64,000 nucleotides of DNA from Octopus vulgaris. Taxonomy: Eukaryota. Under the pieces are notes generated by a model, which was not told where the DNA came from, made no database searches, and saw only the letters and a list, made by a program, of their open reading frames with translations. Of the stretch, positions 1,096 through 15,758 are shown piece after piece. Made by a program: the position numbers and the translations under genes. Where the stretch lies: the NCBI GenBank assembly GCA_951406725.2, contig OX597816.1, forward strand, positions 133,238,001-133,302,000, given 5' to 3'. The stretch's first letter is position 1. The number at the start of each line of letters is the position of its first letter.

Positions 1096-2511
1096 TCAAG
1101 AGAAGCTAAGTACTGAAAGGATGGTCCCCATGACTACAACAAATACTGTGAGAGTAAATCTTGACACTGCACCGTTCTTTCTATCATATCTTGTTCTCCC
1201 ACTGTATCTCCTGTCCTCATTAACAGGGAAGCCTGAAGTCCCAAATGTAGGAAGAGATTTATCTTCGTTATAGATCCGTCCAATCATTGTTGCTGAATGC
1301 AAGGGATTGTTGAACATACGTTTTGAGTTTATTTTGCCATGTTCATACTGCCACACATCATCAAGAATTTGATCTCCTTTATTCATAAATACCATCTGTG
1401 GATAAATATGATCAGCCGTGAAATTATAACCAGAAAGACCAAATCTTGAAAAGTATGTATCAGCAGAGAAGATATCCTTCCCGCATACTCTATTACAGTT
1501 CATGACTGTGCAGATCTCAAACGACATGCGCCTGTCTAGAGCATTTATAAAGCCCTTGTAGATCCCCAGGCTATATTTCTCCGATTCTAAAGATTCGCCA
1601 GAATAATCTACTTTACAACAGAAAGAACCACTACATATGCTTACATTATCGGTGTATTTTGGCAGATCTATAAATTTAAAACGAATTTCTTCACCGAGTA
1701 TTTTGACACTGTGATACGAGAATTTGCCAAAGGAAACTGATAAATGAGGAATGACTGGTTTCTTTTGTCTTGAATAACGATTCATTTTCACATGGTCAAT
1801 GAGTAAGTGGCCTCTTGTAGAATCAGGTTTGTTATAATAAGAACTTTCACTATATGGGAAGTAAATTCCACTTCCATATGACCCAATGTTTGTGTCATGT
1901 ATAGTAGCAGCTAGTACATTAACCTCATTTCCAATTGCCCAACTAGAGTGCCATTGAACACTACTAAGCAAAGGCGAACTCGATCGCCAAACATTGGGAA
2001 TGATTATGTTCTTCACTTTCCGCTTATTTAATAATTCCGTTATTGGTTCTTTCAACATTGTGTCATAAGAACTCACTACGGCAAATTTGTTCTGAATAGT
2101 CTCGAAAACAGCAATGCTGAATTCATCCGGGCTGTCAAAATATGGTTCATTCAACAAAGCCATTCTACGGTACTTGGCTACGAGATTTCCTTTGTCCGAA
2201 AACACAACCGTACTACTGTAATGGTAATAACTATGGCTAGGGCATTTATGATTTGATCGGCGGTTGCATCTTGCTTTCTCACCTAAGCTAGCCACAATGT
2301 GCATTCTGTTATCTCTTGCTAAACAACTGAGCTTCTTCTGGATAATATAATCTTCTTCATCCAAATCTCTTTCCTCGCACGGGTTCCACTTGGCATGTTC
2401 TACCTCAGGTATTGTTTCTAAGAACGGATGAATAGAGTCATGGCTCTTCATTGTACCAAAGGCAAATACTCCGAACAATCCATATTCAGGAAATACGATT
2501 ACATCAGCTCT
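1096..2511 (-). CDS. Vanin/biotinidase-like protein (nitrilase/CN-hydrolase fold plus vanin C-terminal domain), exon 2 of 2
   Basis: Translation RADVIVFPEYG...WNPC...LSCLARDNRMHIVASLGEK..C......KCP....YHYSSTVVF...GNLVAKYRR...FCCKVDY...EICTVMNC matches the vanin/biotinidase pattern. Acceptor cttttgcag| ends at 2512 in phase 0; stop TGA at 1098-1096. The hydrophobic C-terminus after ...RKNGA resembles a GPI signal. The upstream part of the track ORF (2512-2601) is intronic. Confidence 0.93.
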   Translation of the reverse strand, partial: RADVIVFPEYGLFGVFAFGTMKSHDSIHPFLETIPEVEHAKWNPCEERDLDEEDYIIQKKLSCLARDNRMHIVASLGEKARCNRRSNHKCPSHSYYHYSSTVVFSDKGNLVAKYRRMALLNEPYFDSPDEFSIAVFETIQNKFAVVSSYDTMLKEPITELLNKRKVKNIIIPNVWRSSSPLLSSVQWHSSWAIGNEVNVLAATIHDTNIGSYGSGIYFPYSESSYYNKPDSTRGHLLIDHVKMNRYSRQKKPVIPHLSVSFGKFSYHSVKILGEEIRFKFIDLPKYTDNVSICSGSFCCKVDYSGESLESEKYSLGIYKGFINALDRRMSFEICTVMNCNRVCGKDIFSADTYFSRFGLSGYNFTADHIYPQMVFMNKGDQILDDVWQYEHGKINSKRMFNNPLHSATMIGRIYNEDKSLPTFGTSGFPVNEDRRYSGRTRYDRKNGAVSRFTLTVFVVVMGTILSVLSFS

Positions 2512-2910
2512 CTGCAAAAGAAAAAGCGAGCATATATACATAGAAATATATAATTTACATATAAATACATAATTTACATAATACTCATCATAAAAGGACA
2601 TTCGTAATATAAGCTAAGAATAAGTACATTAACATAAGCTATATTTCGGTTTGATTCCTTCTTGAATGTATCTGCTCCTGATCTCTAATTCCTCCGGTAA
2701 TTTGATCTTTTGTTAGATGAATTTTAACGTGTGCAATCTTATATATATTTATATTCATAAGTTCTAATCATTTCTTTTCTTCGTAATTTGACTGTTCCGA
2801 AGAAAATTTTTACATTTGTATCTTTCCCAGATAACATTCTTCTATTTCATATTGAAATGTTTCTTTATACATCACAGAGAAACACCAGACATAAAAGTAC
2901 TTTCTAAATA

Positions 2911-3848
2911 TCTATATATATAAAACTCAACTTGTGTGTCTGTGTGTGTATCTGTGTGTGTGTCTGTGTGTTTAATTTCGCGGCACATCTCCTCCTAGCC
3001 AACAAATCTTCGCGGCACATCTCCTCCAGCCAAAGACCACCAAAAATGGGTCACTTAAAGTTTAGGCGAATGAAAATTGAACTGTGCTATTTCTGTTTCG
3101 AAATTCATCTCGCAAGTGCAAAAATCGATAATGTGTTTGTTTAGGCCTTATCCCATGCACTGAATAGTGAACTTTACTCAGTCAGCTGTTTGACGTGAAC
3201 TGTGTTCACCACGCGTGCAAGCATGCGTAAATCGCGTGAAAAATAAAAAATCAAGATATAAAAACGAATCGCCGTAAACATTGTAGAAATTCGGCAAAGA
3301 AATGAATTTTCGGGATGTAGCCTGGAGGGTTTTTTCGTATTAATCGTTTGGACTTTGTGAACACATACCAATTGTTTTCATAACATTTTTAACGCTTTGA
3401 ATTAAATGTGACCATTTTGCGTTGAGTCTGCAGTTTGAATCACTTTAACCAAATTTTAGCAGGCCGGATTTTTGATCATCACGATACATTGCCAGCGACT
3501 CCCTGAAACTCTCCCCTGAAATCCCCGTTGAGAAATACTGATCTAAAAGAATAATTCAACAATGCAATTATTTGATCAACAAAAATTTATGAACCGCTTC
3601 TACGTACTTCCTATTGAAGAAATGGAACACATAAGCGCAAAAATAGAGGGCATTAAATGCTTGATTTTAAAACCAAAATAATTGAATTTTGATTGAACTT
3701 CATCCAAGTTTAGCTTAATTCGCGCGTGCATAGAACGCACGAGCGCACGTACGTACATTGTGTAAGAAAGTATTGATTTTGCACTCGCAGATTAATCGAT
3801 TTTCCTCAGTGCGATTAATAGTCACACAAAGCCGGGCAATACTGCTAG
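2911..3848 (+). mobile_element. Non-autonomous Helitron-like element
   Basis: Starts A|TCtatatatataaaac and ends gccgggcaatactgCTAG|T. Same termini as 54086-54525 and 59066-59571; subterminal hairpin partly lost. Confidence 0.7.
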
Positions 3849-4193
3849 TAAATGCATATATTTGTTTCTAGATGTGCAAGCAGAAGCCTTTATTTGAGCG
3901 ACCCAATTTCAGAAGTGTTTCATCGAATGCATCATTTTTTACTGTTTTTGTTTCATATTTTAAAAGCTTTTAGACATCTGTTCTAGTTACAACTTTTCAT
4001 TTATTCTCATTAATAGATTTGAAAGCCGTTAACATCATCTATCAATTTGACAAGTCCGAGAAACTCAATTGTTTTCACCACGCCCAGATCACTTCGAATC
4101 ATTTATTTGTTTAATTTGTTTTACTTGTTTCAGTCATTGGACTGTGGTTATGTCGAACAAGTCAATCCCAGTACTTATTTTTTAAGTCTTGCA

Positions 4194-4316
4194 CACGCGC
4201 GCACGCATACACACACGCACACACACACACACACACACACACACACACACACACACACACACACACACACACACACACACACACACACACACACACACAC
4301 ATACACACACACACAT
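4194..4316. repeat. (CA)n microsatellite inside a decayed minus-strand SINE (about 4115-4460)
   Basis: Visible repeat. The flanks resemble the 27614-28036 SINE family. Confidence 0.8.
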
Positions 4317-14299: not shown

Positions 14300-14910
14300 A
14301 AAAAACTAAAATAAGAGTATACAAATCTAGTATTATGAACACACTTTTGTACGGGGCAGGAGTATGGACTTCCAACTACAGACATATGAAGAAACTTAAG
14401 CCCTTTCACATGTGCTGTCTGTGCAATATCTGCATCATAAAATGGCAAGATAGGATATCAAATGTCAAAATTTTAGAAAAATGCGGTTATCTCCAGTATC
14501 AAAAGCATGTTATTGAAAGTTCAGTGCAATTGGGTAGGGCATGTACGAATGAAAGATTATCGCTTTCCAGAAATTCTTTTGTGTGGCCAACAAGCAGAGT
14601 GATACTGCGATTAAAGAAGATCCATCCTTAGGTATAAGAATAAGTTGATGCACTCAAGAAAACTACAGCTTAAATTGACTTCTTAGGAAAGTTATTGCCT
14701 AGATCGATCTGCGTGGCATAAAATGTATCATGATGCATCACAGGAATTCGAGTTGAAAAAAAAAAACAGAACAATAAAAGAGTTATAACCTGCAATCAAC
14801 AGACACACTTGTCCAATCTCAGGCAAAATCAAAGTCACCAGTGTCCTCAATATGACTTCATAGCAAACTCCAGACCTGGACTCAAATTACATTCATGCAT
14901 CTATCGCAAA
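14300..14910 (+). mobile_element. RTE-clade LINE 3' fragment (decayed)
   Basis: KIRVYKSSIMNTLLYGAGVWT...KKLKPFHMCCLCNICIIKWQDRISNVKILEK is typical of the RTE RT C-terminus; frameshifted. Confidence 0.85.
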
Positions 14911-14946
14911 TAAATAGTTTCTGTATATTCAATCCTCTTTTTTTCT

Positions 14947-15163
14947 TAAGGCGGCGAGCTGTCAGAAACGTGAGCACGCCGGGCGAAAGGCTTAGCAATA
15001 TTTTGTCTGTCTTCATGTTCTGAGTTCAAATTCCGCCGAGGTCAACTTTACCTTTCACCCTTTTCGGAACGATCAATTAAGTACCAGTTGCGTACTGCAG
15101 TCGATTTAATTGACCAGCCCCACTCCCCAAAAATTTCGGGCCTTGTGCCTAGAGTAGAAAAGA
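14947..15163 (+). mobile_element. tRNA-derived SINE, family A, full length
   Basis: Starts taaggcggcgagctg, has B-box gagttcaaattc, and is flanked by the direct repeat aatcctctttt (TSD-like). Confidence 0.9.
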
Positions 15164-15515
15164 ATCCTCTTTTGTTTTCTTTCTTTTAATCCTTTCCTTC
15201 AAACTCTCATACGTCGAAATAGACAGGAGTAACCATCATATATAAATATATATATATATATATATATATGTTCATATGTATATATACAGACTCATACACA
15301 GACTCACACACACACATACATACATGTGCGTGTGTGTGTGTATGTGCACAGATATATATATATATATATAGATAGATAGATAGATAGAGAGAGAGATAGA
15401 TAGAGAGAGAGAGAGAGAGAGAGAGAGAGAGAGAGAGAGAGATGTATGCTTGTGTGTGCGTGTGTATGTGAGGTGAGGTGACAAAAAGAATAGCAGTAAT
15501 GGCAAGAATACTCAC

Positions 15516-15758
15516 CGACCTCTCGGCTTCCCTAACCATGTTAGCATATATTTCCAAGTTTTGCCGTATCACACGTAATGCTTCGTATCTACTGATGTTT
15601 TGCACACGCGGGGGTTTGATCGGTATGTGCTCGTAAACGGCACCGCTATACGTATCGTACATATTGGCGTTGCGATCGTAGTCCGTATAGGCTGCTACAG
15701 TAGCAAAAAGCAATAGAAGGCTTCCAAACAGCCCCTTATTACCACCGAGTTCGACCAT
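15516..15758 (-). CDS. Vanin/biotinidase-like protein, exon 1 of 2 (signal peptide plus N-terminus)
   Basis: MVELGGNKGLFGSLLLLFATVAAY...YSGAVYEH...SRYEALRVIRQNLEIYANMVREAERS matches the vanin/biotinidase N-terminus (AAVYEH...SR.EAL....NL.IY). 243 nt = 81 codons, followed by donor |gtgagt at 15515. It joins in frame to exon 2, giving 552 aa. Confidence 0.92.

What the first reader, a model, noticed from the sequence alone, without database searches (positions are those of the whole stretch)
1096..15758. Intact vanin/biotinidase-like gene with two of three catalytic residues replaced: candidate GPI-anchored pseudoenzyme
Established: nitrilase-superfamily enzymes use a Glu-Lys-Cys triad; in vanins and biotinidase the motifs are (F/T)PE(D/Y)G, RY(H/R)K and FTCFD. 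Seen: Glu is retained (FPEYG, codon 2487-2485). The Lys position is Arg (AKYRR, AGA at 2166-2164) and the nucleophile Cys position is Ser (VVSSYD, TCT at 2070-2068). The usual YNT motif reads YSS. The ORF, splice sites, structural cysteines, signal peptide and GPI-type tail are all intact. Inference: a surface protein kept for a non-catalytic role (ligand binding or adhesion), or less likely a Glu-Arg-Ser variant chemistry.
Basis: partly seen in the sequence, partly recalled or inferred. Interest (0 to 1): 0.7.

Follow-up and report, generated by a model that had tools for sequence, protein, structure and literature searches.

The report
Octopus vanin-like likely pseudoenzyme (Glu-Arg-Ser)
This octopus gene is an intact, spliced relative of the vitamin-recycling enzymes vanin and biotinidase in which two of the three catalytic residues are replaced, so it likely makes a non-catalytic, predicted cell-surface protein; a Glu-Arg-Ser triad in this cephalopod family was already reported in 2017, and its function is untested.

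Summary
Observation confirmed. The gene has two exons (15758-15516 and 2511-1096, minus strand) and encodes 552 aa, identical to Octopus vulgaris CAI9719979.1. Contigs from 4 of 4 public runs are spliced. Glu90, Arg197 and Ser229 align with human vanin-1 Glu79, Lys178 and Cys211, and the model fits vanin-1 at Z 51, 1.6 A.

It is not new. It is cephalopod 'symplectin/biotinidase-like group 3', and Francis et al. 2017 report that all group-3 proteins carry Ser and mark E-K-S and E-R-S triads.

Added here: the change took two steps. Squid orthologues are E-K-S with the rest of the site intact (7 of 7). Octopod orthologues are E-R-S (5 of 5) and also lost the near-invariant Asn156 and Asn180. Other octopods keep a normal E-K-C paralogue. 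The fold is still under constraint.

Best reading: a conserved, likely GPI-anchored pseudoenzyme (0.65). Rival: a serine-nucleophile enzyme (0.2). No assay exists in the papers I found. The few close-range DNA differences (9 replacement, 1 silent) do not show purifying selection.

The parts
15516..15758 (-). Coding exon 1 (aa 1-81): predicted signal peptide (about aa 1-23) and start of the nitrilase domain
   Evidence: ATG at 15758, donor GTGAGT at 15515; loose ends of 4 contigs match it; hydrophobic windows 8-25
2512..15515 (-). 13.0 kb phase-0 GT-AG intron
   Evidence: Splice sites read directly; contigs leave the window at 2512 and continue in exon 1
1096..2511 (-). Coding exon 2 (aa 82-552 and TGA): most of the nitrilase domain, base domain and tail
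   Evidence: Open frame; Pfam CN_hydrolase 8e-11 and Vanin_C 4.3e-23
2485..2487 (-). Glu90, catalytic Glu position (vanin-1 E79), retained
2215..2217 (-). Ser180 in place of the Asn of YNT (Asn in 125 of 127 Cys-bearing representatives)
2164..2166 (-). Arg197 in place of the catalytic Lys (vanin-1 K178)
2146..2148 (-). Glu203, aligned with the position taken here as the second active-site Glu of the superfamily, retained
   Evidence: role of the second Glu from PMC4812014 passages; the equivalence is inferred from alignment
2068..2070 (-). Ser229 in place of the nucleophile Cys (vanin-1 C211); followed by Tyr230 in place of Phe
1261..1683 (-). Vanin C-terminal 'base' domain (aa 358-498), with Cys420 and Cys424 aligned to vanin-1 C403 and C411 (symplectin C385 and C390)
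1099..1176 (-). Predicted GPI signal (aa 527-552): small residues N527-G528-A529, then a hydrophobic end
   Evidence: hydropathy; low-confidence spacer 507-533 and terminal helix 535-551 in the model; omega-site rule recalled, not from a call

Best explanation
The gene is the octopus member of cephalopod symplectin/biotinidase-like group 3: it is intact and spliced, carries Arg and Ser at the catalytic Lys and Cys positions, and likely encodes a catalytically dead or nearly dead protein that is predicted to be GPI-anchored and would act by binding at the cell surface. Steps shown: gene structure, splicing, the residue changes, group-3 placement, and an E-K-C paralogue in other octopods. Predicted: the vanin fold. 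Inferred history: after duplication in early coleoids, group 3 changed Cys to Ser and Phe to Tyr/His; the octopod branch then changed Lys to Arg and lost Asn156, Asn180 and Phe221 while the group-2 copy kept amide hydrolysis. Inferred mechanism: Ser229 is a weaker nucleophile that the Glu-Glu-Lys site cannot turn over, and Arg197 is unlikely to replace the Lys amine of the oxyanion hole; it would pair with Glu90/Glu203 instead. The protein is likely kept for binding, most plausibly through the lectin-like base domain (recognition or adhesion), less plausibly by holding a pantetheine- or biocytin-like ligand in the dead pocket. The ligand is unknown.
For: (1) Both replacements are fixed in orthologues: 5 of 5 octopod rows E-R-S and 7 of 7 squid-type rows E-K-S, clades 100/100 and 100/99, group 3 100/100. 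(2) Among 149 of 150 cluster representatives, Lys is changed in 1 of 127 Cys-bearing and 4 of 22 non-Cys proteins; Asn180 in 2 of 127 and 13 of 22. Active-site residues erode once Cys is gone. (3) Of 41 nitrilase-domain sites at least 85% conserved in 132 E-K-C proteins, Octopus group 3 differs at 10, Argonauta at 8, squid-type group 3 at 2-3. (4) Engineered parallels: Lnt C387S forms an oxygen ester but cannot complete transfer, and Lnt K335A is inactive (PMC6828757 passages); MtCPA C158S binds ligand but forms no covalent adduct, and its Lys forms the oxyanion hole (PMC4812014 passages). (5) E-K-C group-2 paralogues exist in O. sinensis (P0184), O. bimaculoides (P0183), Argonauta (P0087) and Vampyroteuthis (P0186), so the housekeeping reaction need not rest on this gene. 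(6) The protein is constrained: against O. bimaculoides 1 of 94 family-conserved sites changed versus 30 of 291 others (Fisher p=0.002); model pLDDT 89.5, vanin-1 Z 51.2, rmsd 1.6 A over 447 residues. (7) Octopus against squid-type rows, the E-K-C group keeps its catalytic domain far better than its base domain (54-57% vs 30-32%, 3 of 3 pairs p<1e-4); group 3 does not (43-48% vs 39-44%, 0 of 7 pairs significant) and keeps its base domain better. (8) The vanin-1 base domain resembles a Lewis-antigen-binding lectin domain and was proposed as the leukocyte-homing domain (PMC4834066 passages).
Against: No activity or binding data exist here. Glu90, Glu203, Asp231 and Trp256 are invariant in all group-3 rows, and both changes are chemically conservative (Ser is still a nucleophile, Arg still positive), as Francis et al. 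note for Ser. The mutant parallels are Lys-to-Ala, not Lys-to-Arg, and come from engineered, not evolved, sites. The count of 10 lost sites is less striking beside cephalopod E-K-C group-2 proteins, which differ at 4-7 of the same 41 sites, although not at 156, 180, 197, 221, 229 or 230. The domain contrast is weaker with Argonauta as the octopod (44-47% vs 35-41%; p<0.05 in 3 of 7 pairs), and the deepest squid-type row P0009 does keep a catalytic-domain premium (71-76% vs 55-59%; 6 of 6 pairs p<0.02). The catalytic exon of the E-K-C paralogue was not found in this genome: only its exon 1. The 10 differing positions in the four runs are 9 replacement and 1 silent, compatible with neutrality (p=0.36) and not with omega 0.2 (p=0.004); counts are small and mix alleles with a second organism label. 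Anti-GPI-80 antibody did not modulate adhesion or migration of PC3 cells expressing human VNN2.
Confidence: 0.65

Rival explanations
1. An active serine-nucleophile hydrolase or acyltransferase with a Glu-Arg-Ser site (Glu-Lys-Ser in squid) acting on a different substrate; Arg would serve as oxyanion hole and the Asn-to-Ser and Phe-to-Tyr changes would be co-adaptations.
For: Squid-type group 3 differs from the family consensus almost only at Cys>Ser and Phe>Tyr/His, 2-3 of 41 sites, and keeps a catalytic-domain premium at its deepest split. Both glutamates are invariant in group 3. Ser is the commonest replacement for Cys (14 of 22 non-Cys representatives), and E-R-S also occurs in an unrelated coral-like cluster (P0074). 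Francis et al. left Ser catalysis open.
Against: Cys-to-Ser cripples turnover in two superfamily members. Octopods lost Lys and Asn180, and Argonauta has Ile at 180 where Octopus has Ser, which suggests relaxed rather than tuned sites. Cys>Ser, Lys>Arg and Asn>Ser are each reachable by one base change, so recurrence is expected without function (inference from the genetic code). My search for a Glu-Lys-Ser nitrilase found 0 papers.
Confidence: 0.2
2. A redundant duplicate under relaxed selection that is still transcribed but drifting towards loss.
For: 9 replacement to 1 silent difference among close sequences. Octopus-Argonauta: 22 of 94 family-conserved sites changed in group 3 against 5 of 93 in the E-K-C paralogue (p=0.0006). 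Long octopod stem branch, 0.63.
Against: Open frame, 10 cysteines, signal and tail are kept between Octopus and Argonauta at about 50% identity. Substitutions avoid conserved sites within Octopus (1 of 94 vs 30 of 291; 2 of 94 vs 43 of 291). The O. vulgaris/O. sinensis pair differs at 7 of 552 residues, fewer than the 11 of 522 in the group-2 E-K-S paralogue. Five of the 9 replacement positions lie in or next to the folded domains and 4 in the tail.
Confidence: 0.1
3. A symplectin-like chromophore or luciferin carrier that binds a small molecule through the base-domain cysteine, independent of the nitrilase site.
For: Sister family of symplectin; Cys424 aligns with vanin-1 C411, the equivalent of symplectin C390; the base domain is relatively well kept.
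Against: That Cys is conserved in essentially all family members and pairs with C403 in vanin-1; its partner Cys420 is present here, and the 10 Cys are an even number. Francis et al. list O. vulgaris as non-luminous and found no symplectin-group protein in octopodiforms.
Confidence: 0.05

Closest known systems
Cephalopod symplectin/biotinidase-like protein group 3 (Francis, Christianson and Haddock 2017, PMC5541922)
   Same: Falls in one clade (100/100) with proteins named 'Symplectin/biotinidase-like protein 3' from Octopoteuthis, Chiroteuthis and Dosidicus; Ser nucleophile followed by Tyr as described; the paper's Fig. 1 legend already marks E-R-S triads.
   Different: Squid members keep Lys and YNT; octopod members have Arg and lost Asn156/Asn180. 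The paper text does not discuss E-R-S further or propose a pseudoenzyme. I could not see the figure or the alignment file, so which sequences bear the E-R-S star is inferred.
Human vanin-1 (pantetheinase, VNN1; PDB 4CYF/4CYG/4CYY/7SLV)
   Same: Two-domain nitrilase plus base fold (Z 51, rmsd 1.6 A, 32% identity); Glu79 kept; signal peptide and GPI-type tail.
   Different: Lys178 to Arg, Cys211 to Ser, Phe212 to Tyr, YNT to YSS. The inter-domain Glu249/Glu439 pair is Gln/Gln here, but that pair varies widely in E-K-C relatives (EE in 12 of 140), so it is not diagnostic.
Octopod group-2 pantetheinase-like proteins (P0183, P0184, P0087, P0186)
   Same: Nearest paralogues; catalytic domain split by an intron at the same place before the (I/L)VFPE motif in this genome's group-2 gene.
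   Different: E-K-C triad with YNT intact; about 34% (nitrilase) and 20% (base) identity to this protein.
Symplectin (Sthenoteuthis oualaniensis photoprotein)
   Same: Same family and two-domain plan; base-domain Cys position kept.
   Different: Symplectin keeps E-K-C and uses a free Cys390 for dehydrocoelenterazine; no such evidence here.

Membership tests
Vanin/biotinidase family (CN_hydrolase + Vanin_C) | Nitrilase domain followed by Vanin_C base domain | tested here: met
   Pfam PF00795 42.2 bits (cut-off 23.2) and PF19018 82.4 bits (cut-off 23.4); fold matches vanin-1
Vanin/biotinidase family (CN_hydrolase + Vanin_C) | Conserved structural cysteines | tested here: met
   10 Cys (126, 144, 163, 171, 374, 379, 380, 415, 420, 424), each 81-100% conserved in 140 E-K-C proteins
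Vanin/biotinidase family (CN_hydrolase + Vanin_C) | Signal peptide and GPI anchor (vanin type) | tested here: inconclusive
   Hydropathy fits; no predictor or experiment; a C-terminal membrane helix is not excluded
Canonical pantetheinase/biotinidase enzyme | Catalytic Glu | tested here: met
   Glu90 = E79
Canonical pantetheinase/biotinidase enzyme | Catalytic Lys | tested here: not met
   Arg197 = K178
Canonical pantetheinase/biotinidase enzyme | Nucleophile Cys | tested here: not met
   Ser229 = C211; no Cys between 172 and 373
Canonical pantetheinase/biotinidase enzyme | Hydrolysis of pantetheine or biocytin | not testable with these tools
   needs an assay
Cephalopod group 3 (Francis 2017) | Clade with named group-3 proteins | tested here: met
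   12 rows, support 100/100
Cephalopod group 3 (Francis 2017) | Ser at the nucleophile position, usually followed by Tyr | tested here: met
   Ser229-Tyr230
Pseudoenzyme | Expressed, intact gene | tested here: met
   spliced contigs in 4 of 4 runs laid (run type guessed, not on record; a contig that skips a 13 kb intron is the evidence)
Pseudoenzyme | Purifying selection | tested here: inconclusive
   Protein-site test positive; close-range DNA differences 9 replacement to 1 silent; no codon-based dN/dS possible
Pseudoenzyme | Absence of catalytic activity and a non-catalytic function | not testable with these tools
   needs assay and binding or knock-down data
Symplectin photoprotein | Free base-domain Cys binding dehydrocoelenterazine | not testable with these tools
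   Cys424 present but so is its expected partner Cys420

The most novel reading that the evidence does not exclude
Group 3 is a natural serine-nucleophile branch of the nitrilase superfamily: squid Glu-Lys-Ser proteins are active, and octopods (and, independently, a coral-like lineage) evolved a working Glu-Arg-Ser site. That would be a nitrilase-fold hydrolase that works without the cysteine and lysine held to be essential.
Probability: 0.15. Interest if true: 0.75.

Novelty: already known. Interest (0 to 1): 0.3.

Why it matters
The gene and its odd triad are on record, so a specialist would not be surprised. What is useful is a ready natural series in one animal group: E-K-C (group 2), E-K-S (squid group 3, octopus group-2 copy) and E-R-S (octopod group 3). 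One assay on these would show whether the nitrilase fold can use serine and whether vanin-type proteins have a job without catalysis, a question left open for vertebrate vanins, where an adhesion or homing role has been ascribed to the base domain.

Tried and rejected
(1) 'Octopus has no E-K-C copy, so the Ser proteins must be active.' Own-genome searches found only this gene, an E-K-S paralogue (L002) and two truncated fragments. Rejected after searches showed E-K-C paralogues in other octopods and one search found exon 1 of that gene here; its exon 2 was not found in about 78 kb downstream or by an exact pattern, which does not show absence.
(2) Rescue by A-to-I editing: AGA cannot be edited to Lys nor TCT to Cys by A-to-G reading (genetic code), and no other letters were listed there.
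(3) Assembly error or pseudogene: same residues in P0001, P0021, P0024, P0002 and in 4 of 4 runs.
(4) Glu249/Glu439 to Gln/Gln as proof of inactivity: not diagnostic.
(5) Codon-based dN/dS: no orthologue DNA beyond the four runs.
(6) Tissue and level of expression: no listed holder is on record as RNA and no tissue is given; 6 of 24 listed runs held next to none of the words, which is no evidence.
(7) Dating Lys to Arg: the group-3 profile search found no further group-3 member such as Vampyroteuthis.
(9) Paper searches with 0 hits; 'vanin' + 'pseudoenzyme' listed 2 unrelated titles.
(10) Earlier scan findings: nothing.
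Full report
Observation. The minus strand holds a two-exon gene: exon 1 15758-15516, a 13.0 kb phase-0 GT-AG intron, and exon 2 2511-1096. The joined frame is 552 aa and has 0 differences from P0020, Octopus vulgaris CAI9719979.1 'biotinidase 3', and 7 from O. sinensis XP_029634192.1. Pfam gives CN_hydrolase and Vanin_C above their cut-offs. 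The phmmer alignment to human vanin-1 puts FPE on TPE, KYRR on RYHK and SSYD on TCFD without nearby gaps; Francis et al. give the human triad as E79, K178, C211. So Glu90 is kept, Lys is Arg197 and Cys is Ser229. The ten cysteines are all family-conserved structural ones and none lies between residues 172 and 373.

Transcription. Of 24 runs listed, 18 hold at least half of exon 2's words; none is on record as RNA. In 4 of 4 runs laid, from four studies, one contig covers exon 2, leaves the window at the acceptor and continues in exon-1 letters. That shows a spliced transcript. No other letters were listed at the triad codons. Tissue and level are unknown.

Fold. AlphaFold2 on a 100-sequence alignment gave mean pLDDT 89.5, low only at 1-5 and 507-533. 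Best matches are the four vanin-1 entries (Foldseek E 5e-48; VIA Z 51.0-51.2, rmsd 1.6 A, 447-449 residues). Hydropathy shows an N-terminal and a C-terminal hydrophobic stretch with no tail after it, which fits a signal peptide and a GPI signal; this is a prediction.

What is known. The nearest named relatives are 'Symplectin/biotinidase-like protein 3' of three squids. Francis et al. 2017 (PMC5541922; I read parts 1-3 of 4 of the text; figures not held; alignment and FASTA supplements unreadable) describe four cephalopod groups, state that all group-3 proteins carry Ser, mostly followed by Tyr, note that Ser could still be a nucleophile, and mark E-K-S and E-R-S triads in the Fig. 1 legend. 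Two Octopus species were in their data. I infer that the E-R-S mark is this gene's clade, since octopod group 3 is the only named-mollusc E-R-S set I found; the unseen figure and supplements bear on this. In the searches 'symplectin'+'biotinidase' (3 papers), 'symplectin'+'octopus' (7) and 'vanin'+'pseudoenzyme' (2) I saw no functional study of group 3. Passages of PMC7708342, PMC7024357 and PMC13076209 added nothing on it. The library lacks most subscription journals.

History of the site. In a tree of 57 hand-picked rows, group 3 is one clade (100/100) with an octopod branch (5 of 5 rows E-R-S) and a squid-type branch (7 of 7 rows E-K-S; three named squids, four unnamed). Of 41 nitrilase-domain sites at least 85% conserved in 132 E-K-C proteins, squid-type rows differ at 2-3 (Cys>Ser, Phe>Tyr/His), Argonauta at 8 and Octopus at 10, including Asn156, Asn180, Lys197 and Phe221. 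Cephalopod E-K-C group-2 proteins differ at 4-7, none of them these. Among 149 of the 150 best cluster representatives (one lacked the region), Asn180 is changed in 2 of 127 Cys-bearing and 13 of 22 non-Cys proteins, Lys in 1 of 127 and 4 of 22; these rows are related, so the p-values overstate independence. Non-Cys copies are thus a recurring product of duplication in this family, including scallop, clam and snail proteins and a coral-like E-R-S cluster (P0074; long branch, grouped 100/96 with Desmophyllum).

Is the reaction covered by another gene? This genome's other complete paralogue (L002) is E-K-S. O. sinensis, O. bimaculoides, Argonauta and Vampyroteuthis each have an E-K-C group-2 protein. 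Exon 1 of that gene is in this genome at 93% identity, but exon 2 was not found. An assembly gap is likely but not shown.

Selection. Against O. bimaculoides, 1 of 94 family-conserved sites changed versus 30 of 291 others; against P0024, 2 of 94 versus 43 of 291; against Argonauta, 22 of 94 versus 152 of 289 (p=0.002, 0.0003, 7e-7). The E-K-C paralogue changed only 5 of 93 conserved sites over the Octopus-Argonauta split, so group 3 is constrained but more loosely. Octopus against squid-type rows, group 2 keeps the catalytic domain much better than the base domain (54-57% vs 30-32%); group 3 keeps them equally (43-48% vs 39-44%). The effect is weaker with Argonauta, and the deepest squid-type row keeps the premium, which fits decay mainly on the octopod side. 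Against this, the 10 positions that differ in the four runs are 9 replacement and 1 silent: compatible with neutrality, not with omega 0.2. Four of the nine replacements are in the tail, and three are G>T changes within 13 bases of one contig. No proper dN/dS could be run.

Mechanism. In the superfamily the Cys attacks the amide, two glutamates activate it, and the Lys amine with a backbone NH forms the oxyanion hole (PMC4812014 passages). Cys-to-Ser keeps binding but strongly lowers reactivity in MtCPA; in Lnt it allows acylation but not transfer, and Lys-to-Ala is inactive (PMC6828757 passages). With both changes and loss of Asn180, normal amidase turnover is unlikely (inference). The retained fold, predicted anchor and relatively well-kept base domain point to a surface binding role; the vanin-1 base domain resembles a lectin domain and was proposed to mediate homing (PMC4834066 passages). 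[quoted passage not shown] I put the pseudoenzyme at 0.65, a serine enzyme at 0.2, drift at 0.1 and a chromophore carrier at 0.05.

Verdict. Real and correctly described, but the gene group and the triad variant are already in print. The additions are the two-step decay, the wider loss of site residues in octopods, the retained E-K-C paralogue and the shift in domain constraint. Interest 0.3.

Noticed in passing
G000:C6:4873170-4874537 (L002/L015) with exon 1 at C6:4887341-4887544 (L018): A second octopus paralogue (group 2) independently carries Ser-Tyr at the nucleophile (E-K-S) in three Octopus species; O. sinensis also has an E-K-G copy (P0185).
   Followed up: partly
G000:C6:94748468-94748674 (L017): Exon 1 of the E-K-C group-2 gene (93% identical to P0184) with no catalytic exon found within about 78 kb downstream or elsewhere in the assembly: gap, misassembly or loss.
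   Followed up: partly
G000:C20:23828836-23829129 (L003) and C20:23503822-23504104 (L009): Two truncated copies of the start of group-2 exon 2 that break off after the YNT motif; the second is frameshifted.
   Followed up: partly
P0074, P0213-P0215 (unnamed ENA proteins): An independent Glu-Arg-Ser vanin-like cluster that groups with coral sequences and has also lost the YNT Asn.
   Followed up: partly
P0218: A pantetheinase-like E-K-C protein named from Ptychodera flava, although Francis et al. 2017 found no homologue in hemichordates.
   Followed up: no
window 1099-2511 in runs X1, X2, X11, X15: Differences among close sequences are 9 replacement to 1 silent; run X15 carries the same six exon-2 replacements as P0001. 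Could reflect chance, relaxed or diversifying selection.
   Followed up: partly
window 28100-29700: Long imperfect triplet microsatellite (about 1.5 kb; GC 20% in 28001-30000).
   Followed up: no
window 19076-19783, 23501-24190, 31945-32592, 57119-57562: Open-frame fragments that look like LINE reverse transcriptase and DNA transposase remnants (by inspection of translations, not searched).
   Followed up: no
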